Shown: piece by piece, positions 13,488 to 63,788 of the stretch | Position numbering within the stretch: the stretch's first letter is position 1 | How the letters are laid out: each line of letters starts with the position of its first letter | NCBI GenBank assembly: GCA_038087875.1 | Contig: CM075991.1 | Location: 8,434,001 to 8,498,000 of the forward strand | Direction: 5' to 3' | DNA: 64,000 nucleotides | Source: Malacoraja senta | Taxonomy: Eukaryota | Notes under the pieces: generated by a model | The model's input: the letters and a program-made list of their open reading frames with translations, nothing else | What the model was told of the DNA's origin: nothing | The model's database searches: none | Program-made: the position numbers and the translations under genes

Positions 13488-13779
13488 CTTTTAGAGATAC
13501 AGTGCGGAAACAGGCCCTTCGGCCCACCGAGTCGGCGCCGACCAGCGATCCCCGCACATTAACACTATCCTACATACACGAGGGACAATTTACACATACA
13601 CCAAGCCAATTAACCTGTACGTCTTTGGAGTGCGGGAGAAAACCAAAGATCTCGAAGAAAACCCACAAGGTCATGGGAAGAACGTTCAAACTCCGTACAG
13701 ACAGCACCCGTGGTCGGGGTTGAACCCGGGTCTCCGGCGCTGCAAGGCAGCAACTACCGCTGCGTCACCGTGCCGCCCC
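13488..13779 (-). mobile_element. HE1-like SINE, near full length
   Basis: Head GGGGCGGCACGGTG..., B box and CR1-type tail. Confidence 0.85.
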
Positions 13780-24296: not shown

Positions 24297-24427
24297 TGTA
24301 GGAAAGAACTGCAGATGCTGGTTTAAATCGAAGATAGACACAAAATGCTGGAGTAACTCAGCGTGACAGGCAGCATCTGTGGAGAGAAGGAATGGGTGAC
24401 GTTTCGGGTCGAGACCCTTCTTCAGAC
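24297..24427 (-). mobile_element. Penelope pLTR-derived fragment with hammerhead-like core
   Basis: Minus strand CTGAAGA-AGGGTCTCGACCC-GAAAC-GTC. Confidence 0.75.
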
Positions 24428-31606: not shown

Positions 31607-34319
31607 AGAATAGAAAGACATGAACTGTTTCAGCAAGCAATTGAATTAACCTTGGTGTATTGGCCGATAATTGTCCTTCAAGCTGTAATACTGGAAGAAG
31701 TTTTTTACCCCTTCTGGTGATATCATTGATAAAGCCATCAAGTATGGAAACAGGCCCTTTGGCCCATCTTGCCCATGCCATCTAAGATGCCCTATCTACA
31801 CTAGTCCCACCTGCCTGCATTTCGCCCATATCCCTCCAAACCTTTCCTGTTTGTCCAAATGTCTTTGAAATGTTGTTATAGCACCTGCCTCAACAACTTC
31901 CTCTGGCTGCTCATATACCCACCACCCTCCGGGTGAACAAGTTGCCCTTCATGCTCCTATTAAATCTTTCCCCTCACATTAAACCTACGACCCCTGGTTC
32001 TAGATTCCTCTACCCGAGGGGAAAAAACTGTGCATCTCCCCTATCTATTCCCCCCATGATCGAGTACACTTCTATAAGATCACCCCTCATCCTCCTGCAC
32101 TGCAGGGAATAAAGTCCTAGCAACATCCTCAAAGGTTTTCTCTGAACATCTTCCAGCTTAACAACTTTTCTAGAGCAGGGCGACCAAATTGATTGTGAAA
32201 TAAAGTTAGTGGTAATAACAGCCTCCGAAATATGTTGCAGTTATTAAAGTGCTTAGGGATAATCCGAGATCATAAGGGCAATATAATCACATCTTCTCTA
32301 CTCCCCCAGGCACCTCACTGCAGAATGATCAGCATATGACACAATATCACATTAGAGATATCAGGCTTGAAGAAGTTTCATAGAAATAGAGGGAATTGCA
32401 TAGCTTAAAGACTAGTCATCTAATCGCAAGGCCACAAGTGGCGAGGGTAGAATGTTGAAGTGTAATAGAAAGAAGGCTCGATGGCTCATCAGGAATTTTG
32501 GGGAGTGTTGGAGGTTACAGAGATGGGAAGATCAAACACTTTGGAAGACCAGAAAGGAAGAATGGATTGTTAAATCCAAGAGGCAATTTACATCAGTAGA
32601 CACAAGGAGGAAAGCAGAATACATACACCTGACCCGCTGAGTTACCCCAGGCACTGCGAGCCCACCAGAGTGATAGACAAGCTCACATTTGGAGAGTAGT
32701 TAGTATCCAGCAAGAAAGTAATGAACTAGAGGAACTCAAATGTGCCAACGTGCAGGGTTTTCAGTAGCAGATTAAAGGCATTGATATGAGTGTACTGTAC
32801 TAGCCTGGGCCTGAATTAGCAGTGGTCCAGAATGCAGTGTAAGCACAAAACAATCAACACTAACACCGTCAGGCATTTTCACAGATCAGTTATTCCCAAT
32901 TATAAATCAACTGGGAGACAAACGCTGAGTCAGCCAACAGGACATCCTGGTAACAAACTTGGCTTCTAAAATGAATTATTTACATGTATTCAAATTGCCC
33001 CCAGGCAGGTTAAATACTGTGGTAAACTTAATATATAATAATATCAATTTCAGCACCAAAGATCATCTATACCTCAGCATTTGCAAAATGCAGATATTCA
33101 ATGATGTTATTAGATGTTTAGGGATCTTGGCAGGGCAGGTGGTGAGCATGAGGGAGATGTGTGTTCATTCCTAGAGCTGTGGATCTTTGGTGTTCTCCTT
33201 CAAAGTCACAACCAACTTCATGATAAGTCACTAGATTTTTCAGGGGACACACAGTCTCGAGGTCGATAATTGTCCTCATCTTAACAAAACGTATGGCTGG
33301 CTTGATGGATCAGATGGTCTGTTCATGAATACAAGGAGCAGGGGCAAGGCTTCTTCTTGTGCTGTCCATCTTGTTACAAATGTTGGCCTCGCTGTCATCG
33401 TCCGTCCTGAAAAGGACGCAAGCTTCCGGCGACAATCAGTGGAAGCCATCACTTGTCGCAATAAATGATGGTGGTAGCAGAATTAGCTCGGGATACTTCC
33501 AGTATCCAGCCCCACGACGTGGATGCTTCTGCTATGGGGCCAGGGGCAAGGCTGATCTGATATCAGGTTTTCAGAGAAATCAATGCTTTTATTCCCTTAG
33601 GTAGCAAGTGATGTGGCGAGAGGCAAGGAGAGCATTAGTTTTAGTTTAGTTAGCTTAGTGATACAGTGTGGAAAGACCGAGTCCGTGCCGACCAGCGATC
33701 CCCGAACTCTTACACCATCCTACACACTCTTGGGACAATTTACAAGTTTTACCTGACTACGAGTCTGTCTGTACGGAGTTTGTACCTTCTCCATGTGACC
33801 ATGTGGGTTTTCTCCGGGTGCTTCGGTTTCCTCCGACACTCCAAAGATGGACAGTGTAAGAAAGGCAGACGGACCTTGTAGCTCGCAGTCACACCATTCG
33901 AAAGAGGAAACTTATCTGACAGAAAACTCGAGGCACAGACCAGCCACAATTGCATTATCCAGTGGCGCAAGCTCAAGGGGTTTAATGTTCAAGTTCTGCA
34001 TCTACCCCTGACACAAGTGAACATGGTTATTCATATAAAAAAAAAACAAATGCAGCCAATGTTAATTTTGTTAATACAAAATGAAAATGCAAAGATATTT
34101 TGTGGGCAAGGCAGATCTTGCACTGCATCTTTAGTTAAGGAAAATTATCAACCTCAAGTCTGCTATCTGGCCTTATCAGAAAAGTCTGTCCAAAAATACA
34201 TTGACTCAGTTTTAGATGCAGTTGTACCCGTTTGCTCTTGCAGTAGAGAATTTTAAAGATCCTTTGCCTCTGGAGCTTGCATCTTAGAGTTTACACTTTA
34301 AAAAAAAACTTATCAGTGC

Positions 34320-34632
34320 ACTGGAAACAGGCCCTTCAGCCCACAAAGTCCATGCTGACTATCAATCACCTGTTCACACTAGTTCTATGTTATACCATTT
34401 AATCATCCACATTTTACCATTAGGAACATTTTTCTTCCACTAGGGACAATTTACAGAGGCCAATTAACCTACAAGCCTGCACATCTTTGGGACGTGGGAG
34501 GAAACCGGAGCACCCGGAGAAAACCCATACGTTCACAGGGAGAACATGCAAACTCCACACAGACAACAGCTGAGGTCAGGAGCGAACCCATGTATCTGGC
34601 ACTGCAGCAGCTCCACCAGCTCCACCATTGTG
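34320..34632 (-). mobile_element. HE1-like SINE (duplicate at ~43943-44255)
   Basis: Similarity to other HE1 copies. Confidence 0.75.
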
Positions 34633-36169
34633 ATTTAATATTTGAGTCAAGTATTCAATAAAGCCAAGCAAGTTGGTTATTAGGCCCAAGCGCTGTTAGT
34701 ACTTTTCAAAAAACTTGCACATAGTTTTGCAACTTGCAACTGCAACTTGCAAAATGCAACTTGCATTTATAACCCCATTAACCTATGTCCTTAATCACCC
34801 ACTGTGATTGAGCAGAACACCAGTGGCTCCAATGACAGAAGATTGTGTGCCAGGTTCTGGCGCTGCCAATTAAAGAGTTGGCTGGAATATATCTAGGCAA
34901 CAAAATACCAATTGGTCACAATTATAAATTAAAATCTGCTCTCAAGTTTCATACACTAAAGAACATGCATTTAAATCCAAAATACAGAATGCAAAAAAAA
35001 GGACAACTTCACAATAATTAAACCTGAAGGGAATACCTATGAGGTGACAATCCACCGACTGTGAATTCTTAAAATAAAAGCATTAAGTGATGAAAACACT
35101 CAGCAGGTCAGGCAGCTGTTTCTCATTCCACAGATGCTACCAGACCTGGTGAGTGTTTCCAGCATTATACTGTTTTTACTTCAGAGTTCCAGCATTTACA
35201 ATTTATTGTGATCATCTTTAACCAATCTCTTCCCTTAGGTGGCTCGTTAATGTCCCACCTTAACATCAGTCATTCAAGGGGAGTGGGCTTTGCACCTGAG
35301 CCATTTCATTGCCATCTCTAATTACACATGAGGAAATGGCAATAAGATGCCTTCTTGAACCACTGCAGTCCACTCGAAAATTAATCACTTGTTGTACAGC
35401 TGGGATGTACAAAAAGGGTTTGCAGAAAGTTCCCCACCCCACGAAGATGTTGTTTTCAAATTTGATTCCACAGCTTGCATCTATTTGGGTCAATAACTTA
35501 AATACAAAGTTAAGATGATAAGAAAAGAGAGTGGCCCAAGCAGCCTCTTGAATAGATAGACACAAAATGCTGGAGTAACTCAGCCGGTCACGCAGCGTAT
35601 CTCTTGAGTAGGTTCTGCCTTTAAATAGTTCCAGCCCTATCCTCAACCCTTTTCATACCACTAACATCCAAAAATGCATACTTACGCAAATGATAGTAGA
35701 TTGAAACTCATCACCCTGAGTTTTGAGCAAAATAAATGGCATAGCATCTGTGATACAGACAAAGCTTCAACCTCTTAAGAACAGGGATGGGTTTGCTAAA
35801 CACTCTGTTCAGTCTGCAGAAATGATCCTACACTCCTGGCAGTTTATCTCTTCAATTCTCGGCCCCACTACCATTTTCACCCCAGTCTACTTTCGGCCTC
35901 CTTTCTGCACTGCCCTAACAATGCCCAAGTTCGCAAACTAAACGGGCACACCTCATTTCCCGTCAGGACATATGGACACTATTGGGCCTTCTTATAGAAT
36001 CGAATAACATTTAGGGTAGACACAAGGAACTGCAGATGCTGGTTTACAGAAAATACCCACAAAGTTCTGGAGTAACTCAGCATGTCAGGCAGCATCTATG
36101 GTAAACAAAAATAGGTAACATTTCTGGTTGGGACTCTTCTTGCTCCTTGGGACAGAGAGATTCCCCATC

Positions 36170-36970
36170 ATATATATATAACCATAACAGCACGGAAACA
36201 GGCCATCTCAGCCCTTCAAGTCCGTGCCGAACATTTAAAAACATTTTTTTTTTTAAATTAAAAATAAATTCTTCCCCCTAGTCCCATCTACCTGCACTCA
36301 GACCATAACCCTCCATTCCTTTCCCGTCCATATACCCATCCAATCTATTTTTAAAGGATAACATCGAACCTGCCTCCACCACTTCCACTGGAAGCTCATT
36401 CCACACAGCTACCACTCTCTGAGTAAAGATGTTCCCCCTAATGTTCCCCCTAAACTTCTGTCCCTTAATTCTCAAGTCATGTCCCCTTGTTTGAATCTTC
36501 CCTACTCTCAATGGGAAAAGCTTATCCACGTCCACTCTGTCTAACCCGCTCATAATTTTAAAGACCTCTATCAAGTCCCCTCTTAACCTTCTGCGCTCCA
36601 AAGAATAAAGACCTAACTTGTTCAACCTTTCTCTGTAACTTAGTTGCTGAAACCCAGGCAACATTCTAGTAAATCTCCTCTGTACTCTCTCTATTTTGTT
36701 GACATCCTTCCTATAATTAGGCGACCAAAATTGTACTCCATACTCCAGAATTGGCCTCACCAATGCCTTGTACAATTTTAACATTACATCCCAACTTCTA
36801 TATTCAATGCTCTGATTTATAAAGGCCAGCACACCAAAAGCTTTCTTTACCACCCTATCTACATGAGATTCCACCTTCAGGGAACTATGCACAGTTATTC
36901 CTAGATCCCTCTGTTCAACTGCATTCCTCAATTCGCTACCATTTACCGTGTACGTCCTATTTTGATTCCT
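36170..36970 (-). mobile_element. CR1 LINE 3' fragment with open ORF2 C-terminus
   Basis: ORF 36278..36931 with QRDLGITV and LYKALVRPILEYGVQFWSP. Confidence 0.92.
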
Positions 36971-37017
36971 TAATGAAAGCTAGATTTTCCCCTCAAATCT
37001 CTTTGTCCCAAACAGAT

Positions 37018-37070
37018 GGGGTGGAGGATTGCAACCTTCACGTGGTCCGCCCTGTTTCGACTAATGCAAT
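37018..37070 (+). ncRNA. Minimal HDV-like self-cleaving ribozyme (predicted)
   Basis: P1 GGGGTGG/CCGCCCT with G1.U wobble; P2 ATTGCA/TGCAAT; P3 ACC/GGT; L3 TTCACGT; GT followed by a minimal P4; J4/2 CTAA with the putative catalytic C at 37061. Confidence 0.85.
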
Positions 37071-37155
37071 CAACTTGACGTGCACAAACGGAAGATCAAA
37101 TAGAACAAGATGTCCAACAACTTTAGGCTGTGCACGCCACACGGAAGAAGAAGAA
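37018..37155 (+). mobile_element. 138-bp HDV-ribozyme-headed non-autonomous retroelement, copy A
   Basis: 13-bp TSD GTCCCAAACAGAT (37005-37017 and 37156-37168); (GAA)n tail; homologous copies at 46642, 54433 and 63650. Confidence 0.9.
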
Positions 37156-37787
37156 GTCCCAAACAGATTTGAACCAATTATTATTTACTGACTTTCATCT
37201 TGATCTGTATCTTGTCACAGACCTAGAAATGTCAATGAGCAGGCTGACATACATGGTAGAGGTGTAACAAAGTTACCCCTCAGATTCCTATTAACAGTTA
37301 TTATATACACAGATCACTTGAGGGGGTAACTTTTTTTCACACACAAAGGGTGGTGTGGGTGTATGGAACAAGCTGCCAGTAGAGAGGCAGTTGAGGCAGG
37401 GACTACTATCCCAACGTTTAAGAAACATCTGGACGGGTTTGGAGGGATATTGGGCAGGTGGGGACGAGTGTGGAAGGGGGGCCAGTATGGGCAAGTTGGG
37501 CCGAAGGGTCTGTCAGCAAAGAAAGAGACGAAAAATGACAAGGCAAACCCTAATTTTCCGTCGGGACACATTGACACTATTGTATGTGTTTTAAAAAAAA
37601 ATGGTAATATGAACATTTAGGGCAGTGACTCTATCTGTTAGAGAGGGCGAACGTTTTAATTCCCGGAAGCAGGGCTTTTATGTTTAAAACACTGGTGATT
37701 AAAAGTGTGTGTGTGTGGGGGGGGGTTGTTGTTGCAAATATATATATATATATATCTAGATATATAAATATATGATATAATACTCAC

Positions 37788-37819
37788 ACCACCAGCCTGG
37801 AGATGAGCCACGACACCAT
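37788..37819 (-). CDS. REEP4: REEP4 coding exon 1 (MVSWLISRLVV)
   Basis: GCCGCC-ATG-G Kozak context; 32 nt; GTGAGTA donor; matches the REEP1-4 N-terminus. Confidence 0.95.
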
Positions 37820-38990
37820 GGCGGCCGTTGCGATTCAAACCGTCGCCGCTCCTCCTACACGGTCCGCACTCACTGGGCGAGAGCTGCTCCCTGCGCGGTC
37901 CGGGCGGGGCTGCCGGCAGAAACCCGCCCCCCCCCCCCTGCGCTGAGTGGGATCCTCGCTCCCTCCCTCGCTCTTCCTACACGGTCCGCACTCGCAGGGC
38001 GGGATGGGCCGTTGGCACTACCCGGTCCGCACTGGGTGTTCCTGCGCGGTCCGGGCGGGGGGGGGGCCTCCACTACTACTCTTCTCAGTCTACTCCCTTG
38101 AGTGGTGAATGGGGCTATTCAGTCACACACACACACACACACACACACCAAGCCCCCCCCGGGTCCGTGAATGGGGCAGTTGTGGCTGCACTCACTCACT
38201 CGCTCACTGGGCGAGCGGGTGCTCCCTGCGCGGTCTGGCCGGGTCCGGAGTCTGACCACGTTGACCCTGTTGTGTGCGGGCCACCGCCCTCCGGTCCCCT
38301 GCCCCTACCCGGTCCGCACTCAGCAGGCGAGCGGGCGGTCCCCTCCGCGGTCCGGGCGGCAACGGAGTCAGGCCACGCCCCCCCTGCCCGATGCCCTGCG
38401 GTGAACGCTCCGTTGGCACTACACGGTCCGCGCCCTCTGTGCGGCTGGCTTTGGAAACGTTGCCTCTCGCCGGTCCGCCTTCCAGCTGGTGCTGGGGTTT
38501 TCACTACTCGGTCCGCTTTTTTTTTTTGCTTTGGTCACTTCCAAAAAGTTCCAAAGAGCCTGTTGTCTTGGGTGTGGGTCCGCTTTGTGATAAATCTCTA
38601 ATCTCTCCTTTTCTATCTATCCTTCAACTTTATTGTCTATTTGGGGAGGGGGGGGGGGGGTGGGTGGCAGAAAGAAGCACATGTCGGCTCGTCCGCCGAC
38701 TTTAAAACCCCCCCACCCGTTCTCCCCTTTAATTGCTTTCACCTGGGCCGCTACCTGTGGCTGGGAGGACCAGGAGTCCTCCAAGCCGTCCCTCGCCGGT
38801 CCGCGTTGCCCGGCCAACGGAGGGGAGGACGAAGCTGCGGGAGTGCGCAGGCGCGTTCTGTGTGTAGGGGGGGGGGGCTTGTTGCTGCTTTCCACCCAGG
38901 TCCGCGGGGCCATTGACTATTTTGGGGGAAATGTTCACAGTGCGCGTGCGCGTCAATGACTCATTGACCCGCCCAGTCTGTGACGTATGG
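37820..38990 (-). promoter_or_regulatory. CpG island: REEP4 5' UTR/promoter
   Basis: GC- and CpG-rich stretch directly upstream of the ATG; NRF1-like, AP-1, GC-box and CRE-like motifs cluster at 38941-38987. Confidence 0.8.
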
Positions 38991-41036
38991 TGAAACTTTA
39001 CCATGTGTCTTGACTATCTCTTCAATGGCCAATAACTTTGAATTAAAAGTTCCTCTTTAATTACTCCTCCCATTTCTTGTTACCTTTTTAATATGATATC
39101 TAATCTAATCTGATCTTTATGATTCGGTTTTCTCCTGCCTGTCACTCTTTTTCTCTCTACTCACGCCTCCACCCTCAACCTTTTTCTGGTACATTGGTGC
39201 GTTGCTTTCTGGACTTGTTCTGTAACTTTCGCTGCCTCTGCAAGGCCAGCAGCATAATCAAGGACGAGTCGCAACCTGGCACTCCCTCTTCTCCCCCCTC
39301 CCATCAGGCAAAAGGTACAGAAGTGTGAAAATGCACACACCTCTAGATTCAGGGACAGTTTCTTCCAGCTGTTATCAGGCAACTGAACCATTCTACCAAC
39401 AACTAGAGAGCAGTCCTGAACAACTATCTACCTCATTGGAGACCCTTGGACTTGCTGATTCCCAGCCGAGGAATCAGCGTTTCAGCATCTGCAAATGTTT
39501 TGCTCCAACTCTTCTGGCAACTGGGATCATCTCTCTGATCTTCTGGCAGAAACTGCTGGAAGCAGTTGATAAGTCTGGCTTCGGAGAAAGAAAGAGAACC
39601 AATCTTTCTTGCCGATGGTCTTCCACTAGTTTAGTTTACTTGAAAGATGTAGCATGGAAACAGGCCCTTTGGCCCACTGAGTCCATGCTGACCATTGGTC
39701 ACCCGTTCACACTAGTTCTATGTTACTTCACTCCCTCATCACTCCTGTTTAACTTGGCATTAAGTTCGGCACAGATATTGTGGGCTGACGAGCCTGTTCC
39801 GGTGGTGTACTGATCTATGTTTCCAACTCCACATAGAGCTCACTGTTGCCATTGCCGTGGTCTAGGATTGTATTGAAGAGATGTCTTTGCTCCCTCTAGC
39901 TGTATGAAATATAATTTGGAAACTTTCACAGATTAATATAGATGGAAGCAGGTAATTAGACGTACCTGATTCTCGTGAGGTTAATATCCCATAGAAACCT
40001 TCAGCCCTTCTCAGCAAACCCAATCTGTATGTCCTCTCCAGTATATTTACCAACCATCCTTAAATAAATGTATGGAAGTCTAGCTCATTGATATCCCTAG
40101 GTAGTAAATTCCAATCACACTCTGAGCAAAGCCGCTTTATTTATTGGGGGTTTTAGTGACTGTTCTACATGGGTGTGCTTCTCATATCTCATCTAAACTA
40201 AACTAAAGTGTGTACAGGTCATTGACGGTTGGCAAGGACTATGTGGGCCGAAGGGACTGTTTCCATTTATGACCGTTTATGAATAAGTTTATGAATAACT
40301 TTATTGGCCAAGGAATTCACATACAAGGAATTGGTACTCTGCCCGCAAGTGACAACATGACATACAGTGACATTTAGGAATGACACATAAAACATTAAAC
40401 ATCAATAATGAAACATTATTGATTAAACATTAAACATGTGAATTAAATGCTTTCTTTTCCCACGCTGTATCTCTCAACTAATTTCCGTGAAACTCTATCA
40501 TAACGTTACAGACCTCTCTCTTCCCAATCTTCCCTTTATTTTAGGAAAGATAATCCCACTCTGAACGCATCAAACTCTCCAGAAGTCTAAAGAAAACAAA
40601 CTAAAGAATCTCTTTAGTGATGTTGATTTATTTGCAGGCACATGTAGCCAGCGGGAGATTCAGGGGAATTATTATAAGGAAAGGCAATCTGGACAAACTT
40701 TAAAAAAAAACTTGAACATTCCTAGGCACCTTTCCAAAACAAAATCCAATCCAACCCAATCCCGCCCTGACCCAATACCTCCCAAGAACATTCCTGACTC
40801 CATTCCCAATATTGCACTGTGGTCTCTCCTGCGCACAGTACCACCCAGCCGCACAAGCGTGACCCCTATCTCTGGTGGGTCGGTGGTCTCGGCGGGCATG
40901 TGCAGCTGCGGAGGTGATCTGGGGAAAAATAAAGTCCTGATGCATTTTTGACGTCCCACCCAACCATCTGGTAGCTGCGGATGATCTCATTCCTTGGTGT
41001 GGAAATACCAGGTGGCGCAGAGGGAGTGCCACAGAT

Positions 41037-41236
41037 NNNNNNNNNNNNNNNNNNNNNNNNNNNNNNNNNNNNNNNNNNNNNNNNNNNNNNNNNNNNNNNN
41101 NNNNNNNNNNNNNNNNNNNNNNNNNNNNNNNNNNNNNNNNNNNNNNNNNNNNNNNNNNNNNNNNNNNNNNNNNNNNNNNNNNNNNNNNNNNNNNNNNNNN
41201 NNNNNNNNNNNNNNNNNNNNNNNNNNNNNNNNNNNN
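41037..41236. other. Assembly gap (200 N)
   Basis: Run of N. Confidence 1.
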
Positions 41237-44200
41237 AAAGACATGAATTGTTTCAGGCAAGCAATTGAATTAACCTTGGTGTATTGGCCGATAAATGTCC
41301 TTCAAGCTGTAATACTGGAAGAAGTTTTTTACCCCTTCTGGTGATATCATTGATAAAGCCATCAAGTATGGAAACAGGCCCTTTGGCCCATCTTGCCCAT
41401 GCCATCTAAGATGCCCTATCTACACTAGTCCCACCTGCCTGCATTTGGGCCCATATCCCTCCAAACCTTTCCTGTTTGTCCAAATGTCTTTGAAATGTTG
41501 TTATAGCACCTGCCTCAACAACTTCCTCTGGGCTGCTCATATACCCACCACCCTCCGGGTGAACAAGTTGCCCTTCATGCTCCTATTAAATCTTTCCCCT
41601 CACATTAAACCGACGACCCCTGGTTCTAGATTCCTCTACCCTAGGGAAAAAAACTGTGCATCTCCCCTATCTATTCCCCCCATGATCGAGTACACTTCTA
41701 TAAGATCACCCCTCATCCTCCTGCACTGCAGGGAATAAAGTCCTAGCAACATCCTCAAAGGTTTTCTCTGAACTTCTTCCAGCTTAACAACTTTTCTAGA
41801 GCAGGGCGACCAAATTGATTGTGAAATAAAGTTAGTGGTAATAACAGCCTCCGAAATATGTTGCAGTTATTAAAGTGCTTAGGGATAATCCGAGATCATA
41901 AGGGCAATATAATCACATCTTCTCTACTCCCCCAGGCACCTCACTGCAGAATGATCAGCATATGACACAATATCACATTAGAGATATCAGGCTTGAAGAA
42001 GTTTCATAGAAATAGAGGGAATTGCATAGCTTAGAGACTAGTCATCTAATCGCAAGGCCACAAGTGGCGAGGGTAGAATGTTGAAGTGTAATAGAAAGAA
42101 GGCTCGATGGCTCATCAGGAATTTTGGGGAGTGTTGGAGGTTACAGAGATGGGAAGATCAAACACTTTGGAAGACCAGAAAGGAAGAATGGATTGTTAAA
42201 TCCAAGAGGCAATTTACATCAGTAGACACAAGGAGGAAAGCAGAATACATACACCTGACCCGCTGAGTTACCCCAGGCACTGCGAGCCCACCAGAGTGAT
42301 AGACAAGCTCACATTTGGAGAGTAGTTAGTATCCAGCAAGAAAGTAATGAACTAGAGGAACTCAAATGTGCCAACGTGCAGGGTTTTCAGTAGCAGATTA
42401 AAGGCATTGATATGAGTGTACTGTACTAGCCTGGGCCTGAATTAGCAGTGGTCCAGAATGCAGTGTAAGCACAAAACAATCAACACTAACACCGTCAGGC
42501 ATTTTCACAGATCAGTTATTCCCAATTATAAATCAACTGGGAGACAAACGCTGAGTCAGCCAACAGGACATCCTGGTAACAAACTTGGCTTCTAAAATGA
42601 ATTATTTACATGTATTCAAATTGCCCCCAGGCAGGTTAAATACTGTGGTAAACTTAATATATAATAATATCAATTTCAGCACCAAAGATCATCTATACCT
42701 CAGCATTTGCAAAATGCAGATATTCAATGATGTTATTAGATGTTTAGGGATCTTGGCAGGGCAGGTGGTGAGCATGAGGGAGATGTGTGTTCATTCCTAG
42801 AGCTGTGGATCTTTGGTGTTCTCCTTCAAAGTCACAACCAACTTCATGATAAGTCACTAGATTTTTCAGGGGACACACAGTCTCGAGGTCGATAATTGTC
42901 CTCATCTTAACAAAACGCATGGCTGGCTTGATGGATCAGATGGTCTGTTCATGAATACAAGGAGCAGGGGCAAGGCTTCTTCTTGTGCTGTCCATCTTGT
43001 TACAAATGTTGGCCTCGCTGTCATCGTCCGTCCTGAAAAGGACGCAAGCTTCCGGCGACAATCAGTGGAAGCCATCACTTGTCGCAATAAATGATGGTGG
43101 TAGCAGAATTAGCTCGGGATACTTCCAGTATCCAGCCCCACGACGTGGATGCTTCTGCTATGGGGCCAGGGGCAAGGCTGATCTGATATCAGGTTTTCAG
43201 AGAAATCAATGCTTTTATTCCCTTAGGTAGCAAGTGATGTGGCGAGAGGCAAGGAGAGCATTAGTTTTAGTTTAGTTAGCTTAGTGATACAGTGTGGAAA
43301 GACCGAGTCCGTGCCGACCAGCAATCCCCGAACTCTTACACCATCCTACACACTCTTGGGACAATTTACAAGTTTTACCTGACTACGAGTCTGTCTGTAC
43401 GGAGTTTGTACCTTCTCCATGTGACCATGTGGGTTTTCTCTGGGTGCTTCGGTTCCTCCGACACTCCAAAGATGGACAGTGTAAGAAAGGCAGACGGACC
43501 CTGTAGCTCGCAGTCACACCATTCGAAAGAGGAAACTTATCTGACAGAAAACTCGAGGCACAGACCAGCCACAATTGCATTATCCAGTGGCGCAAGCTCA
43601 AGGGGTTTAATGTTCAAGTTCTGCATCTACCCCTGACACAAGTGAACATGGTTATTCATATAAAAAAAAACAAATGCAGCCAATGTTAATTTTGTTAATA
43701 CAAAATGAAAATGCAAAGATATTTTGTGGGCAAGGCAGATCTTGCACTGCATCTTTAGTTAAGGAAAATTATCAACCTCAAGTCTGCTATCTGGCCTTAT
43801 CAGAAAAGTCTGTCCAAAAATACATTGACTCAGTTTTAGATGCAGTTGTACCCGTTTGCTCTTGCAGTAGAGAATTTTAAAGATCCTTTGCCTCTGGAGC
43901 TTGCATCTTAGAGTTTACACTTTAAAAAAAAACTTATCAGTGCACTGGAAACAGGCCCTTCAGCCCACAAAGTCCATGCTGACTATCAATCACCTGTTCA
44001 CACTAGTTCTATGTTATACCATTTAATCATCCACATTTTACCATTAGGAACATTTTTCTTCCACTAGGGACAATTTACAGAGGCCAATTAACCTACAAGC
44101 CTGAACATCTTTGGGACGTGGGAGGAAACCGGAGCACCCGGAGAAAACCCATACGTTCACAGGGAGAACATGCAAACTCCACACAGACAACAGCTGAGGT

Positions 44201-45792
44201 CAGGAGCGAACCCATGTATCTGGCACTGCAGCAGCTCCACCAGCTCCACCATTGTGATTTAATATTTGAGTCAAGTATTCAATAAAGCCAAGCAAGTTGG
44301 TTATTAGGCCCAAGCGCTGTTAGTACTTTTCAAAAAACTTGCACATAGTTTTGCAACTTGCAACTGCAACTTGCAAAATGCAACTTGCATTTATAACCCC
44401 ATTAACCTATGTCCTTAATCACCCACTGTGATTGAGCAGAACACCAGTGGCTCCAATGACAGAAGATTGTGTGCCAGGTTCTGGTGCTGCCAATTAAAGA
44501 GTTGGCTGGAATATATCTAGGCAACAAAATACCAATTGGTCACAATTATAAATTAAAATCTGCTCTCAAGTTTCATACACTAAAGAACATGCATTTAAAT
44601 CCAAAATACAGAATGCAAAAAAAAGGACAACTTCACAATAATTAAACCTGAAGGGAATACCTATGAGGTGACAATCCACCGACTGTGAATTCTTAAAATA
44701 AAAGCATTAAGTGATGAAAACACTCAGCAGGTCAGGCAGCTGTTTCTCATTCCACAGATGCTACCAGACCTGGTGAGTGTTTCCAGCATTATACTGTTTT
44801 TACTTCAGAGTTCCAGCATTTACAATTTATTGTGATCATCTTTAACCAATCTCTTCCCTTAGGTGGCTCGTTAATGTCCCACCTTAACATCAGTCATTCA
44901 AGGGGAGTGGGCTTTGCACCTGAGCCATTTCATTGCCATCTCTAATTACACATGAGGAAATGGCAATAAGATGCCTTCTTGAACCACTGCAGTCCACTCG
45001 AAAATTAATCACTTGTTGTACAGCTGGGATGTACAAAAAGGGTTTGCAGAAAGTTCCCCACCCCACGAAGATGTTGTTTTCAAATTTGATTCCACAGCTT
45101 GCATCTATTTGGGTCAATAACTTAAATACAAAGTTAAGATGATAAGAAAAGAGAGTGGCCCAAGCAGCCTCTTGAATAGATAGACACAAAATGCTGGAGT
45201 AACTCAGCCGGTCACGCAGCGTATCTCTTGAGTAGGTTCTGCCTTTAAATAGTTCCAGCCCTATCCTCAACCCTTTTCATACCACTAACATCCAAAAATG
45301 CATACTTACGCAAATGATAGTAGATTGAAACTCATCACCCTGAGTTTTGAGCAAAATAAATGGCATAGCATCTGTGATACAGACAAAGCTTCAACCTCTT
45401 AAGAACAGGGATGGGTTTGCTAAACACTCTGTTCAGTCTGCAGAAATGATCCTACACTCCTGGCAGTTTATCTCTTCAATTCTCGGCCCCACTACCATTT
45501 TCACCCCAGTCTACTTTCGGCCTCCTTTCTGCACTGCCCTAACAATGCCCAAGTTCGCAAACTAAACGGGCACACCTCATTTCCCGTCAGGACATATGGA
45601 CACTATTGGGCCTTCTTATAGAATCGAATAACATTTAGGGTAGACACAAGGAACTGCAGATGCTGGTTTACAGAAAATACCCACAAAGTTCTGGAGTAAC
45701 TCAGCATGTCAGGCAGCATCTATGGTAAACAAAAATAGGTAACATTTCTGGTTGGGACTCTTCTTGCTCCTTGGGACAGAGAGATTCCCCAT

Positions 45793-46594
45793 CATATATA
45801 TATAACCATAACAGCACGGAAACAGGCCATCTCAGCCCTTCAAGTCCGTGCCGAACATTTAAAAACATTTTTTTTTTAAAATTAAAAATAAATTCTTCCC
45901 CCTAGTCCCATCTACCTGCACTCAGACCATAACCCTCCATTCCTTTCCCGTCCATATACCCATCCAATCTATTTTTAAAGGATAACATCGAACCTGCCTC
46001 CACCACTTCCACTGGAAGCTCATTCCACACAGCTACCACTCTCTGAGTAAAGATGTTCCCCCTAATGTTCCCCCTAAACTTCTGTCCCTTAATTCTCAAG
46101 TCATGTCCCCTTGTTTGAATCTTCCCTACTCTCAATGGGAAAAGCTTATCCACGTCCACTCTGTCTAACCCGCTCATAATTTTAAAGACCTCTATCAAGT
46201 CCCCTCTTAACCTTCTGCGCTCCAAAGAATAAAGACCTAACTTGTTCAACCTTTCTCTGTAACTTAGTTGCTGAAACCCAGGCAACATTCTAGTAAATCT
46301 CCTCTGTACTCTCTCTATTTTGTTGACATCCTTCCTATAATTAGGCGACCAAAATTGTACTCCATACTCCAGAATTGGCCTCACCAATGCCTTGTACAAT
46401 TTTAACATTACATCCCAACTTCTATATTCAATGCTCTGATTTATAAAGGCCAGCACACCAAAAGCTTTCTTTACCACCCTATCTACATGAGATTCCACCT
46501 TCAGGGAACTATGCACAGTTATTCCTAGATCCCTCTGTTCAACTGCATTCCTCAATTCGCTACCATTTACCGTGTACGTCCTATTTTGATTCCT
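45793..46594 (-). mobile_element. Duplicate CR1 3' fragment
   Basis: ORF 45902..46555 is identical to 36278..36931. Confidence 0.85.
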
Positions 46595-46641
46595 TAATGA
46601 AAGCTAGATTTTCCCCTCAAATCTCTTTGTCCCAAACAGAT

Positions 46642-46779
46642 GGGGTGGAGGATTGCAACCTTCACGTGGTCCGCCCTGTTTCGACTAATGCAATCAACTT
46701 GACGTGCACAAACGGAAGATCAAATAGAACAAGATGTCCAACAACTTTAGGCTGTGCACGCCACACGGAAGAAGAAGAA
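46642..46779 (+). mobile_element. HDV-ribozyme element, duplicate of copy A
   Basis: Same sequence and same TSD, inside the duplicated block. Confidence 0.8.
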
Positions 46780-47411
46780 GTCCCAAACAGATTTGAACCA
46801 ATTATTATTTACTGCCTTTCATCTTGATCTGTATCTTGTCACAGACCTAGAAATGTCAATGAGCAGGCTGACATACATGGTAGAGGTGTTACAAAGTTAC
46901 CCCTCAGATTCCTATTAACAGTTATTATATACACAGATCACTTGAGGGGGTAACTTTTTTTCACACACAAAGGGTGGTGTGGGTGTATGGAACAAGCTGC
47001 CAGTAGAGAGGCAGTTGAGGCAGGGACTACTATCCCAACGTTTAAGAAACATCTGGACGGGTTTGGAGGGATATTGGGCAGGTGGGGACGAGTGTGGAAG
47101 GGGGGCCAGTATGGGCAAGTTGGGCCGAAGGGTCTGTCAGCAAAGAAAGAGACGAAAAATGACAAGGCAAACCCTAATTTTCCGTCGGGACACATTGACA
47201 CTATTGTATGTGTTTTAAAAAAAAATGGTAATATGAACATTTAGGGCAGTGACTCTATCTGTTAGAGAGGGCGAACGTTTTAATTCCCGGAAGCAGGGCT
47301 TTTATGTTTAAAACACTGGTGATTAAAAGTGTGTGTGTGTGGGGGGGGGTTGTTGTTGCAAATATATATATATATATATCTAGATATATAAATATATGAT
47401 ATAATACTCAC

Positions 47412-47443
47412 ACCACCAGCCTGGAGATGAGCCACGACACCAT
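47412..47443 (-). CDS. REEP4: Second, identical copy of REEP4 exon 1 in the duplicated block
   Basis: Identical to 37788-37819; probably an assembly duplicate. Confidence 0.5.
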
Positions 47444-48615
47444 GGCGGCCGTTGCGATTCAAACCGTCGCCGCTCCTCCTACACGGTCCGCACTCACTGG
47501 GCGAGAGCTGCTCCCTGCGCGGTCCGGGCGGGGCTGCCGGCAGAAACCCGCCCCCCCCCCCTGCGCTGAGTGGGATCCTCGCTCCCTCCCTCCCTCTTCC
47601 TACACGGTCCGCACTCGCAGGGCGGGATGGGCCGTTGGCACTACCCGGTCCGCACTGGGTGTTCCTGCGCGGTCCGGGCGGGGGGGGCCTCCACTACTAC
47701 TCTTCTCAGTCTACTCCCTTGAGTGGTGAATGGGGCTATTCAGTCACACACACACACACACACACACACCAAGCCCCCCCCGGGTCCGTGAATGGGGCAG
47801 TTGTGGCTGCACTCACTCACTCGCTCACTGGGCGAGCGGGTGCTCCCTGCGCGGTCTGGCCGGGTCCGGAGTCTGACCACGTTGACCCTGTTGTGTGCGG
47901 GCCACCGCCCTCCGGTCCCCTGCCCCTACCCGGTCCGCACTCAGCAGGCGAGCGGGCGGTCCCCTCCGCGGTCCGGGCGGCAACGGAGTCAGGCCACGCC
48001 CCCCCTGCCCGATGCCCTGCGGTGAACGCTCCGTTGGCACTACACGGTCCGCGCCCTCTGTGCGGCTGGCTTTGGAAACGTTGCCTCTCGCCGGTCCGCC
48101 TTCCAGCTGGTGCTGGGGTTTTCACTACTCGGTCCGCTTTTTTTTTTTTGCTTTGGTCACTTCCAAAAAGTTCCAAAGAGCCTGTTGTCTTGGGTGTGGG
48201 TCCGCTTTGTGATAAATCTCTAATCTCTCCTTTTCTATCTATCCTTCAACTTTATTGTCTATTTGGGGAGGGGGGGGGGGGTGGGTGGCAGAAAGAAGCA
48301 CATGTCGGCTCGTCCGCCGACTTTAAAACCCCCCCACCCGTTCTCCCCTTTAATTGCTTTCACCTGGGCCGCTACCTGTGGCTGGGAGGACCAGGAGTCC
48401 TCCAAGCCGTCCCTCGCCGGTCCGCGTTGCCCGGCCAACGGAGGGGAGGACGAAGCTGCGGGAGTGCGCAGGCGCGTTCTGTGTGTGTGTGGGGGGGGGG
48501 GGCTTGTTGCTGCTTTCCACCCAGGTCCGCGGGGCCATTGACTATTTTGGGGGAAATGTTCACAGTGCGCGTGCGCGTCAATGACTCATTGACCCGCCCA
48601 GTCTGTGACGTAGGG
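47444..48615 (-). promoter_or_regulatory. Duplicate of the REEP4 CpG island
   Basis: Near-identical to 37820-38990. Confidence 0.55.
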
Positions 48616-54432: not shown

Positions 54433-55475
54433 GTGGTGGGAGATTGCAACCTTCACTTAGTCCGCCCTGGGTGGCAGTGTGAACTGTGAGGAGGATGCTA
54501 TGAGAATGCAGGGTGACTTGGACAGGTTGGGGGAGTGGGCAAATGCATGGCAGATGAAGTTTAATGTGGATAAATGTGAGATTATCCACTTGGTAGCAAA
54601 AACTGGAAGGCAGATTACTATCTAAATGGCGTCGTTGGGAAAAGGGGAAGTACAACGGGATCTGGGGGTCCTTGTACATCCGTCTATGAAAGTAAGCATG
54701 CAGGTACAGCAGGCAGTGAAGAAAGCGAATGGAATGTTGGCCTTTATAACAAGAGGAATCGAATATAGGAGCAACGAGGTCCTTCTGCAGTTGTATAGAG
54801 CCCTAGTGAGACCACACCTGGAGTATTGTGTGCAGTTTTGGTCCCCTAATTTGAGGAAGGATATTCTTGCTATTGAGGGAGTGCAGCGTAGGTTTACAAG
54901 GTTAATTCCCGGGATGGCGGGACTGTCATATGCTGAGAGAATGGAGCAGCTGGGCTTGTACACTCTGGAGTTTAGAAGGATGAGAGGATATCTCATTGAA
55001 ATATATAAGATTGTTAAGGGCTTGGATACGCTAGAGGCAGGAAACATGTTCTCGATGTTGGGGGAGTCCAGAACCAGGGGCCACAGTTTAAGAATAAGGA
55101 GTAAGCCATTTAGAACGGAGACGAGGAAACACTTTTTCTCACAGAGAGTGGTGACTGTGGAATTCCCTGCCTTAGAGGGCGGTGGAGGCAGGTTCTCTGG
55201 ATGCTTTCAAGTGAGAGCTAGATAGGGCTCTTAAAAATAGCGGAGTCAGGGGATATGGGGAGAAGGCAGGAACGGGGTACTGATTGGGGATGATCAGCCA
55301 TGATCACATTGAATGGCGGTGCTGGCTCAAAGGGCCGAATGGCCTACTCCTGCACCTATTGTCTATTGTCTATTGTTTCAACGAATGCAATCAACCAGGC
55401 GTGCACAATCAAATAAGATCAAATAGAACAAGTTGTCCTGCAACTTTAGGCTGTGCACGCCATACGCAAGAAGAA
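54433..55475 (+). mobile_element. HDV-ribozyme element copy D, more diverged and split by a CR1 insertion
   Basis: TSD TATCCCGGC(C/T)TAGA at 54419-54432 and 55476-55489; 5' half 54433-54469; 3' half ~55376-55475. Confidence 0.85.
54470..55375 (+). mobile_element. CR1 LINE 3' fragment
   Basis: ORF 54626..55225 is the RT C-terminus; (CTATTGT)n tail. Confidence 0.92.
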
Positions 55476-63649: not shown

Positions 63650-63788
63650 GGGGTGGAAGATTGCAACCTTCACGTGGTCCGCCCTGTTTCGACTAATGCA
63701 ATCAACTCGACGTGCACAAACGGAAGATCAAATAGAACAAGTTGTCCAACAACTTTAGGCTGTGCACGCCACACGAAAGAAGAAGAAG
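63650..63788 (+). mobile_element. HDV-ribozyme element copy C
   Basis: TSD CAGAAGGAACTGC at 63636-63648 and 63789-63801; 4 substitutions relative to copy A; intact ribozyme at 63650-63702. Confidence 0.9.

What the first reader, a model, noticed from the sequence alone, without database searches (positions are those of the whole stretch)
37018..37155. A 138-bp mobile element headed by a minimal HDV-like ribozyme whose cleavage site defines its 5' end
Seen: three independent insertions (37018, 54433, 63650; 46642 duplicates the first), each with its own 13-14 bp TSD and a (GAA)n tail. Nucleotides 1-53 read GGGGTGG-AGG-ATTGCA-ACC-TTCACGT-GGT-CCGCCCT-GTTTCGA-CTAA-TGCAAT. This satisfies the HDV nested double pseudoknot: 7-bp P1 opening with G.U, P2, 3-bp P3, 7-nt L3, single-bp P1.1, near-absent P4 and J4/2 C-N-A-A. 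The left TSD abuts G1 exactly in copies A and D and within 1 nt in copy C. Copies A and C differ at only 4 positions, none of them paired or catalytic. Copy D has CGAA rather than CTAA, the same position that varies between genomic and antigenomic HDV ribozymes. No tRNA A/B boxes are present. Known: HDV-like ribozymes process the 5' ends of R2, RTE and ingi/L1Tc retroelements and their short internally deleted derivatives. Inference: this is a promoter-less ribozyme-SINE that cuts itself out of read-through transcripts and is mobilised in trans. I do not know of such a family described in cartilaginous fishes.
Basis: partly seen in the sequence, partly recalled or inferred. Interest (0 to 1): 0.92.

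Follow-up and report, generated by a model that had tools for sequence, protein, structure and literature searches.

The report
Ribozyme-headed short retroelement in a skate-like genome
A 138-base jumping element present in thousands of copies begins with a stripped-down self-cutting RNA motif inherited from a parent LINE, and a sister LINE in the same genome carries a close look-alike of the mammalian CPEB3 ribozyme.

Summary
Window copies A (37018-37155), C (63650) and D (54433, split by a CR1-like insert) are independent insertions with their own TSDs and (GAA)n tails. Copy B lies in a 9.4-kb duplicate beside an assembly gap. Nucleotides 1-54 fit an HDV-type nested double pseudoknot with almost no P4. 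The genome holds 4,645 exact copies of the 22-nt core. In 25 of 29 copies with a scored TSD, the TSD abuts G1.

I found the parent, an RTE-like LINE (LINE-A). Its first ~80-107 nt and last ~38 nt make up the short element, and its ORF starts at an ATG inside the ribozyme's 3' strand.

A second RTE-like LINE (LINE-C) begins with the same architecture plus a full P4. It scores 60-64 bits on Rfam's mammalian CPEB3 ribozyme model (threshold 35). Between the two heads, 8 pairs in P1, P2 and P3 change on both sides, while L3, the P1.1 pair and C-N-A-A stay fixed.

Cleavage itself is untested. The kind is known (RTE, R2 SIDE, L1Tc/NARTc). Three things look unreported in the library I searched: the P4-less form in a vertebrate, the copy number, and a CPEB3-type ribozyme outside mammals.

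The parts
37005..37017 (+). 5' target-site duplication of copy A (gtcccaaacagat), abutting G1
37018..37071 (+). Minimal HDV-like (CPEB3-type) ribozyme. P1 is 37018-24 with 37047-53, opening with G.U. J1/2 is 37025-26. P2 is 37027-33 with 37065-71. P3 is 37034-36 with 37044-46. L3 (TTCACGT) is 37037-43. P1.1 pairs C37039 with G37054. The P4 remnant/linker is 37055-60, with only a U-A pair left. J4/2 (CTAA) is 37061-64, with the presumed catalytic C at 37061. Predicted cleavage is 5' of G37018.
37064..37066 (+). ATG that opens the parent LINE-A ORF (MQST...), overlapping J4/2 and P2. In the short element only a short, non-conserved frame follows.
37019..37104 (+). Stretch homologous to the first 78 nt of the LINE-A head (element nt 2-87), with an 8-nt insertion
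37118..37155 (+). Stretch homologous to the last ~40 nt of LINE-A. It holds the final ORF codons, the stop TAG (37124-26), a ~20-nt 3' UTR and the (GAA)4 tail at 37144-55.
37156..37168 (+). 3' target-site duplication of copy A
46642..46779 (+). Copy B, identical to A, inside the 9.4-kb duplicate next to the N gap
63650..63788 (+). Copy C, of the majority young subfamily (AAG at nt 8-10). TSDs at 63636-48 and 63789-801.
54433..54469 (+). Copy D, head part (nt 1-37). It is old and decayed; the G2>T and GGT>AGT changes break pairs.
54470..55375 (+). 5'-truncated CR1-like LINE fragment inserted into copy D, with a (ctattgt)n tail. It is not part of the element.
55376..55475 (+). Copy D, remainder (J4/2 reads CGAA), ending in a (GAA)2 tail. 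TSDs at 54419-32 and 55476-89.

Best explanation
The 138-bp element is a non-autonomous, internally deleted derivative of an RTE-like LINE (LINE-A). The autonomous element is about 3.2 kb, with one ORF encoding endonuclease plus reverse transcriptase, a ~20-nt 3' UTR and a (GAA)n tail.

The element keeps two parts of the LINE. The first is the first ~80-107 nt, a 54-nt HDV-like self-cleaving ribozyme of the CPEB3 type whose P4 helix has shrunk to one pair. The second is the last ~38 nt plus the tail.

Inferred mechanism:
1. A copy is transcribed as part of a longer host or read-through transcript.
2. The ribozyme folds and cuts immediately 5' of G1. C37061 (C44) acts as the general acid/base with Mg2+. 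This yields an RNA whose first base is G1.
3. The LINE reverse transcriptase recognises the shared 3' end and (GAA)n tail.
4. It copies the RNA by target-primed reverse transcription to the very 5' end, giving full-length inserts with 9-16-bp TSDs that abut G1.

Shown here: the anatomy, the copy number, the sharp 5' ends, the parent LINE, and covariation with a sister LINE's ribozyme.

Inferred, not shown: catalysis, dependence on read-through transcription, and which LINE supplies the enzyme today. The young subfamily's 3' end (...CACACGAAAGAAGAA) has come to resemble that of LINE-C (...GACACGAAAAGAAGAA), whose ORFs are still open.
For: Fold and chance.
- All helices and core bases are present.
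- The chance rate is about 4e-7 per position, and 0 hits with a 7-bp P2 in 26.6 Mb.
- The only Rfam hit in the region, though weak, is an HDV-type model. It spans exactly 37018-37071 and covers the full model.

Match to CPEB3 numbering.
- Core positions U20, C22, A23 and G25, a one-pair P1.1 followed by U, and a 4-nt J4/2 that starts with C all match the numbering reported for the CPEB3 ribozyme (passages of PMC4836649).

Family size and 5' ends.
- 40 of 40 scored genome hits are full length at 97-100% identity.
- The 22-nt core has 4,645 exact matches, and 3,287 of these keep the exact head GGGGTGGRR.
- A TSD was found in 29 of 30 loci. It abuts G1 in 25, sits one base away in 3, and is separated by 8 extra G in 1.
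- 30 of 30 young copies keep all 17 pairs and the core bases.

Parent LINE.
- L090 and L092 end ...LQL* TAG GCTGTGCACGCCATACGCAAGAAG.
- L099 starts with the ribozyme directly after unrelated flank. Like L093, it then runs from the ATG in CTAATGCAATC into the endonuclease.
- Element nt 2-87 align to the LINE head, and nt 101-138 align to the LINE tail.

Sister LINE-C.
- L104, L105 and L106 begin at GGGGATC after three different flanks.
- They score 59.7-64.2 bits on RF00622, against a gathering score of 35.

Covariation between A and C.
- 99.0% of 192 cells form standard pairs.
- 9 pairs change on both sides: 3 in P1, 3 in P2, 2 in P3 and 1 at the P4 base.
- With partners slid by 1-3 columns, 29-46% of cells pair and 0-1 pairs show such changes.
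- 0 of 500 shuffles reach the covariation score.

Variation within family A.
- Within the ribozyme, only nt 32 (U.G to U-A, still paired) and nt 45 (the N of C-N-A-A) vary at 10% or more in public contigs. The 84-nt body has 7 such sites.

Precedent.
- HDV-like ribozymes head RTE and Baggins elements, which lack their own promoters (review passages, PMC6765202).
- P4-less 'minimal' HDV-like ribozymes exist (preprint 10.1101/2023.06.13.544163).
Against: - No cleavage assay and no raw RNA reads were available. Only assembled contigs could be laid, and these cannot show RNA 5' ends.
- Family A's head does not reach any Rfam threshold: 14.6 bits against 44, E=2. Nothing was found at gathering scores, and L099 gave no hit at E<=1.
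- Nested-only folding is no better than shuffles, z=+0.42. This is expected for a pseudoknot, but it gives no support.
- P4 is essentially absent, so activity rests on analogy with minimal variants.
- The covariation is one contrast between two lineages: 6 rows of A and 3 rows of C, which I chose from more than 100 copies at hand and which leave out decayed ones. The structure was also drawn from A first.
- Older genomic copies decay freely. The head is intact in 8 of 25 and 5 of 11. This fits dead-on-arrival copies but gives no sign of selection.
- A sharp 5' end alone could also come from a fixed transcription start.
- No LINE-A copy with an intact ORF was seen. The best open frames were 457 aa or less, with stops.
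Confidence: 0.8

Rival explanations
1. The 5' end is set by transcription initiation at G1 from an internal promoter in the head. The HDV-like fold of family A would then be a vestige that lost activity along with P4, or the same sequence would do both jobs, as in L1Tc Pr77.
For: - P4 is reduced to one pair, and family A reaches no Rfam threshold.
- In L1Tc the first 77 nt act as both promoter and ribozyme (search listing and abstract of PMC3383444).
- Nothing here tests transcription.
Against: - All 17 pairs and the core bases are intact in 30 of 30 young copies.
- Subfamily-level changes fall only on tolerated positions.
- P4-less HDV-like ribozymes are reported to exist.
- The sister LINE keeps a full CPEB3-type ribozyme at the same terminal position.
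- No tRNA-type promoter was found.
- A dual role would not exclude cleavage.
Confidence: 0.13
2. The fit to the HDV fold is a coincidence in the head of an ordinary LINE-derived short element.
For: The descriptor was written after seeing the candidate. At the measured random rate of about 4e-7 per position, a 1.9-Gb genome should hold on the order of a thousand chance matches.
Against: - The match starts at the exact first base of the element.
- A second LINE family has the same architecture base for base through nt 38, with 8 compensatory pairs in P1-P3, and independently passes RF00622.
Confidence: 0.02
3. It is a classical Pol III SINE (tRNA-, 5S- or 7SL-derived head) or a retro-copy of a small cellular RNA.
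For: Its size, copy number and TSDs are SINE-like. TTCGA at nt 39-43 loosely recalls a B box (my reading, not a tool result).
Against: - ARAGORN finds nothing.
- No Rfam family other than an HDV type touches the head.
- Head and tail are both LINE-A sequence.
Confidence: 0.02

Closest known systems
HDV-like ribozymes at the 5' ends of RTE-clade (and Baggins) LINEs (Ruminski et al. 2011, JBC; not held here, known to me through review passages in PMC6765202, and recall)
   Same: The ribozyme sits at the first base of a promoter-poor, roughly 3.2-kb, single-ORF LINE. The ORF starts at or next to the ribozyme. The tail is a short simple repeat.
   Different: The host is a cartilaginous fish. The head is a P4-less minimal form. 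A very abundant short derivative exists. RTE-clade membership of LINE-A and LINE-C rests on architecture and homologue sizes, not on a tree.
R2 SIDEs, short internally deleted elements of R2 (PMC3414825; search listing and abstract)
   Same: A non-autonomous element made from the LINE's 5' ribozyme plus the 3' end that the LINE protein needs.
   Different: R2 and its SIDEs insert site-specifically in 28S rDNA and are few. This family is dispersed over all large contigs, with at least 4,645 core copies.
L1Tc / NARTc and the Pr77 hallmark of trypanosomatids (PMC3185411, PMC4035085, PMC3383444; listings and abstracts)
   Same: A LINE and its truncated non-autonomous partner share a 5' HDV-like ribozyme that releases the RNA from co-transcripts.
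   Different: A different LINE clade (ingi/L1Tc) and a 77-nt head that is also a promoter. No promoter test was done here.
Mammalian CPEB3 intronic ribozyme (Rfam RF00622)
   Same: LINE-C heads score 59.7-64.2 bits against a threshold of 35. By my count from the printed alignment, about 44 of 53 non-P4 positions equal the model consensus. Family A shares L3 (UUCACGU), G37-U38 and the 4-nt J4/2.
   Different: CPEB3 is a single-copy intronic element reported only in mammals (PMC8233481 passage). Here the motif is the first 73 nt of a LINE in an elasmobranch-like genome. Family A lacks P4 and has different P1, P2 and P3 sequences.
Minimal HDV-like ribozymes lacking P4 (Riccitelli et al. 2014, recalled) and theta ribozymes (preprint 10.1101/2023.06.13.544163, passages)
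   Same: The nested double pseudoknot is kept, with P4 replaced by a few bases.
   Different: Those came from metagenomes and gut phages, with origin and role described as undetermined or tRNA-linked. This one has a defined eukaryotic host and a retroelement role.

Membership tests
HDV-like (nested double-pseudoknot) self-cleaving ribozyme | P1 helix of about 7 bp starting at the cleavage site with a G1.U wobble | tested here: met
   GGGGTGG pairs with CCGCCCT, with G1.U36. Three of the 7 pairs covary with LINE-C.
HDV-like (nested double-pseudoknot) self-cleaving ribozyme | P2 pseudoknot between the strand after J1/2 and the 3' end | tested here: met
   GATTGCA pairs with TGCAATC (7 bp). Three pairs change on both sides relative to LINE-C.
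HDV-like (nested double-pseudoknot) self-cleaving ribozyme | 3-bp P3 closing a 7-8-nt L3, and P1.1 between L3 and the base(s) after P1 | tested here: met
   ACC/GGT with L3 TTCACGT. Two of 3 P3 pairs covary. C22-G37 is present but invariant, so it is uninformative.
HDV-like (nested double-pseudoknot) self-cleaving ribozyme | Catalytic C opening a C-N-A-A J4/2 | tested here: met
   CTAA at 37061-64. Subfamilies read CGAA or CAAA at the N only. The role in catalysis was not tested.
HDV-like (nested double-pseudoknot) self-cleaving ribozyme | P4 hairpin (present in HDV and CPEB3, absent in 'minimal' variants) | tested here: not met
   Only U39-A43 remains in family A. LINE-C has an 8-bp P4. The theta preprint passage says minimal variants lack P4.
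HDV-like (nested double-pseudoknot) self-cleaving ribozyme | Score at or above an Rfam HDV-type gathering threshold | tested here: not met
   Family A scores 14.6 bits against 44 on RF02682, with no other model. The sister LINE-C head scores 59.7-64.2 against 35 on RF00622.
HDV-like (nested double-pseudoknot) self-cleaving ribozyme | Mg2+-dependent site-specific self-cleavage | not testable with these tools
   Needs a bench assay or raw 5'-end data. Only contigs were on offer.
Internally deleted non-autonomous LINE derivative (SIDE/NARTc-like) | Head and tail collinear with an autonomous LINE of the same genome; TSDs; the LINE's tail repeat | tested here: met
   nt 2-87 align to the LINE-A head and nt 101-138 to the LINE-A tail. 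TSDs are 9-16 bp and tails are (GAA)n.
RTE-clade non-LTR retrotransposon (the partner LINEs) | About 3.2 kb, a single ~1000-aa ORF with an N-terminal AP-type endonuclease and RT, a very short 3' UTR and a short-repeat tail | tested here: met
   The endonuclease and RT lie in one reading direction. LINE-C open frames are 1008 and 1014 aa. Homologues are ~1000 aa on 3.1-3.5-kb contigs and carry PF03372, PF14529 and PF00078. 3' UTRs are ~20-35 nt plus (GAA)n.
RTE-clade non-LTR retrotransposon (the partner LINEs) | Placement inside the RTE clade on an RT phylogeny with reference elements | not tested
   No named reference RT set was at hand.
Pol III SINE (tRNA/5S/7SL head) | Head derived from a Pol III gene with internal A/B boxes | tested here: not met
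   ARAGORN finds 0 genes. No Rfam small-RNA hit.

The most novel reading that the evidence does not exclude
The mammalian CPEB3 ribozyme, said to have no known relative outside mammals, is the domesticated head of an RTE-like LINE. The LINE-C head in this cartilaginous-fish genome would be its first non-mammalian homologue and outgroup. The 138-bp element would then show that a natural P4-less version of the same ribozyme suffices in vivo to define the RNA of a promoter-less vertebrate SINE that reached thousands of copies.
Probability: 0.4. Interest if true: 0.85.

Novelty: new variant of a known kind. Interest (0 to 1): 0.72.

Why it matters
Ribozyme-processed LINEs and their short derivatives are known mostly from insects, nematodes and trypanosomes. 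This would be a dispersed, recently active, high-copy example in a vertebrate. It would also give a biological home to P4-less HDV-like ribozymes, whose origin is described as undetermined.

The sister LINE bears on an open question. [quoted passage not shown] A LINE head that passes the CPEB3 model in an elasmobranch-like genome makes a retrotransposon origin directly testable.

Thousands of self-cleaving sites scattered through a genome may also cut host transcripts.

Tried and rejected
- **Rfam at gathering thresholds on the whole window:** nothing.
- **Nested-only RNA folding of nt 1-54:** z=+0.42, no signal.
- **Public runs:** all 24 listed runs are kept as contigs and their RNA status is mostly a guess.
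  - X1 and X4 hold hundreds of family contigs (942 and 121 laid). X14 and X17 laid nothing.
  - Contigs cannot show RNA 5' ends. The apparent excess of contigs running past the 3' end over the 5' end sits in a truncated table, so I draw nothing from it.
- **Looking for the LINE with 'not-the-SINE' patterns just after the ribozyme:** 7 matches, all indel variants or a copy next to a MITE.
- **The 3.1-kb periodic hits on C20:** a tandemly duplicated segment holding one short element, not a LINE.
- **L081, L089 and L032:** short elements interrupted by, or next to, a MITE with CCCTGTCCCAC... inverted ends, not LINE 3' UTRs.
- **L092:** a copy whose 5' part is inverted (twin-priming-like), useless for the 5' end.
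- **A third LINE family, ~49% identical in the endonuclease (L094, L095):** no HDV-like match with a relaxed descriptor. Its true 5' end was not established, so this says little.
- **L101 and L102:** the same relaxed descriptor also missed them because of their repeated 26-nt unit.
- **ESM Atlas look-up:** gave only 'RVT_1, Eukaryota'.
- **Earlier notes of this scan:** nothing relevant.
- **Papers not held:** Ruminski 2011 and Webb 2009. What I say of them rests on review passages and recall.
- **Repbase and Dfam:** could not be consulted.

Full report
**What is in the window**

Searches confirm four copies of a ~138-bp element.
- Copy A runs 37018-37155. It is flanked by gtcccaaacagat on both sides and ends in (GAA)4.
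- Copy C starts at 63650. Its TSD is cagaaggaactgc, with one extra t before G1.
- Copy D is older. Its first 37 nt (54433-54469) are separated from the rest (55376-55475) by a 5'-truncated CR1-like LINE fragment. Its TSD is tatcccggcYtaga, and it reads CGAA where A reads CTAA.
- Copy B (46642) is identical to A. It lies in a 99.6%-identical 9.4-kb duplicate (31614-41036 versus 41237-50661) on the far side of a 200-N gap, so it adds nothing and may be an assembly artefact.

A and C differ at nt 9, 59, 93 and 127. None of these is paired or catalytic.

**The fold**

Nt 1-54 read:
- GGGGTGG (P1)
- AG (J1/2)
- GATTGCA (P2)
- ACC (P3)
- TTCACGT (L3)
- GGT (P3')
- CCGCCCT (P1', with G1.U36)
- G (P1.1 partner of C22)
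- TTTCGA (linker; only U39-A43 can pair)
- CTAA (J4/2)
- TGCAATC (P2')

Positions U20, C22, A23 and G25, a P1.1 of one G-C pair followed by U, and a four-base J4/2 opening with the catalytic C are also the features that an NMR study reports for the CPEB3 ribozyme (passages of PMC4836649).

A strict descriptor, which I wrote after seeing the candidate, finds only copies A, B and C on both strands of the window. In 26.6 Mb of Markov-1 sequence it finds 10 start sites with P2>=5, 3 with P2>=6 and 0 with P2>=7.

Rfam gives nothing at gathering scores. It gives one weak hit (RF02682, 14.6 bits, E=2) that spans exactly 37018-37071. Nested-only folding is not better than shuffles.

**The family**

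The window lies in a 1.94-Gb assembly.
- With the 138-nt query, 40 of 40 scored hits are full length at 97-100% identity.
- The 22-nt core has 4,645 exact matches, with 0 in the reversed control. Of these, 3,287 carry the exact head GGGGTGGRR.
- In the 30 loci (three are the window's own A, B and C), a script found TSDs of 9-16 bp in 29. The TSD abuts G1 in 25, is one base off in 3, and is separated by eight G in 1. L018 fell below the script's threshold, but by eye it has a 10-nt repeat with one mismatch.
- Tails are (GAA)2-6.

Older subfamilies exist.
- J1/2 reads GA instead of AA or AG.
- Nt 32 is G or A, so the pair with U5 is kept.
- J4/2 reads CTAA or CGAA.
- The middle segments differ.

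All 30 young copies keep all 17 pairs and the core bases. Among older copies sampled by their 3' end, only 8 of 25 and 5 of 11 do. This is as expected if inserted copies decay neutrally.

In public contigs of two coded organisms, only nt 32 and nt 45 vary at 10% or more inside the ribozyme, against 7 sites in the 84-nt body.

**The parent LINE**

Patterns for the 3' end with 'not-SINE' bases upstream led, after some false leads, to L090. There an ORF ends ...RIRTLHARTAHHLHKWGM..SPVCDCG...LQL*. The TAG is followed by GCTGTGCACGCCATACGCAAGAAGAA. L092 ends the same way.

This C-terminal piece has 3,808 first-look candidates in the genome, and 150 were scored at 71-100% identity.

The 5' ends are rarer.
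- L099 begins, right after unrelated flank, with GGGTGGGAGATTGCAACC...TAATGCAATC.
- The frame opened by the ATG in CTAATGCAATC runs through MQST... into the endonuclease (YQLNVEGMSRAK...).
- L093 shows the same with a small insertion in the head, L096 shows it inverted, and L100 is truncated.

Element nt 2-87 align to LINE-A head nt 1-78, and nt 101-138 align to the LINE-A tail. A third subfamily is simply the LINE head to nt ~107 joined to the tail.

Homologues of the RT are ~1000-aa endonuclease-RT proteins on 3.1-3.5-kb contigs. With the tiny 3' UTR and the trinucleotide tail, this is RTE-like architecture. I made no tree.

**The sister LINE and covariation**

Among endonuclease hits at 34-36% identity are copies with open frames of 1008 and 1014 aa.

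Their 5' ends are L101 and L102, and the single-unit copies are L103-L106. After three different flanks, these start:

GGGGATC AA GGTAGAA GCG TTCACGT CGC GATCCCT G T CAAGTAAT-ATCACCAA-ATTACTTG CGAA TTCTACC

Rfam's 'Mammalian CPEB3 ribozyme' model scores these at 59.7-64.2 bits, against a gathering score of 35, with E of 1e-15 to 1e-16.

Aligned with six family-A heads, the two families are in register base for base through nt 38. They differ by a 19-column P4 gap.

Pair counts:
- 99.0% of 192 cells are paired.
- 9 pairs change on both sides: 5:32, 6:31 and 7:30 in P1; 11:72, 13:70 and 15:68 in P2; 17:29 and 19:27 in P3; and the P4-base pair.
- Slid controls give 29-46% pairing and 0-1 such pairs.
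- 0 of 500 shuffles reach the covariation score, and 29 of 500 reach the count of double-changed pairs.

L3, C22-G37, U38 and C-N-A-A are invariant.

The caveat is that this is one contrast between two lineages. I chose the nine rows as intact representatives.

**Which LINE drives the young copies**

LINE-C ends ...GACACGAAAAGAAGAAGAAG. Old short elements and LINE-A end ...CCATACGCAAGAAGAA. The young subfamily, which includes the window's A and C, ends ...CCACACGAAAGAAGAA.

I infer, without proof, that the young burst uses the still-open LINE-C enzyme.

**Host**

A CR1-like fragment next to copy A is 91% identical to a Leucoraja erinacea protein and 84% identical to one from Mobula hypostoma. 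Shark proteins follow. I went no further.

**Known or new**

- Review passages state that HDV-like ribozymes head R2, L1Tc, Baggins and RTE elements, and that RTE and Baggins lack their own promoters (PMC6765202).
- R2 SIDEs and NARTc are non-autonomous derivatives that keep the ribozyme (listings).
- Minimal HDV-like ribozymes lack P4, and their origin is called undetermined.
- Searches for HDV-like ribozymes with shark, skate, elasmobranch or cartilaginous terms and for 'CPEB3-like' found no description.
- Repbase, Dfam, Ruminski 2011 and Webb 2009 could not be read.

**Verdict**

- It is a new variant of a known kind.
- The CPEB3-type head of the sister LINE is a noteworthy by-product.

Noticed in passing
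L104:133-205(+), L105:57-129(-), L106:55-127(-), L103 (genome C1, C21, C2): The first 73 nt of a second RTE-like LINE (LINE-C) score 59.7-64.2 bits on Rfam's mammalian CPEB3 ribozyme model, against a threshold of 35. A paper states that this ribozyme is unknown outside mammals.
   Followed up: partly
L101 and L102 (genome C4:35489250-35489900 and C8:937230-937880, minus strand): In these LINE-C copies a 26-nt unit (GATC + J1/2 + P2 strand + P3 hairpin) is tandemly repeated 4-6 times between the P1 5' strand and the P1 3' strand. GATC occurs in both P1 strands, which suggests template slippage. The effect on the ribozyme is unknown.
   Followed up: no
L107, L108 versus window 37130-37155 and 63762-63788: The young subfamily's 3' end (CACACGAAAGAAGAA) resembles the LINE-C 3' end (GACACGAAAAGAAGAA) more than that of its parent LINE-A (CCATACGCAAGAAGAA). 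This may reflect a switch of partner.
   Followed up: partly
window 31614-41036 and 41237-50661, gap 41037-41236: A 9.4-kb tandem duplicate at 99.6% identity lies on either side of a 200-N gap. It is either a real recent duplication or an assembly artefact.
   Followed up: partly
L081, L089, L032: A ~300-bp MITE-like element with inverted ends CCCTGTCCCAC... has inserted into the TTTAGG of two short-element copies. In L032 it lies next to a ribozyme head.
   Followed up: no
L068+L069 (genome C20:6843500-6861500): A segment of about 3.1 kb is repeated at least four times in tandem, and each unit carries the same copy of a short-element subfamily.
   Followed up: no
L092 (C8:52750300-52754800) and L096: These LINE-A copies have their 5' part inverted relative to the 3' part, the pattern expected from twin priming.
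   Followed up: no
window, many sites (e.g. 24330-24422, 13491-13553): The window is dense with other repeats: at least two abundant short families (17-26 copies each in 64 kb) and several CR1-like LINE fragments. No host gene was recognised.
   Followed up: no
L094 (C1:165943700-165944350, minus): A third RTE-like family, ~49% identical in the endonuclease and with open frames of 863-886 aa, shows no HDV-like match upstream of its ATG with my relaxed descriptor. Its true 5' end was not determined.
   Followed up: partly
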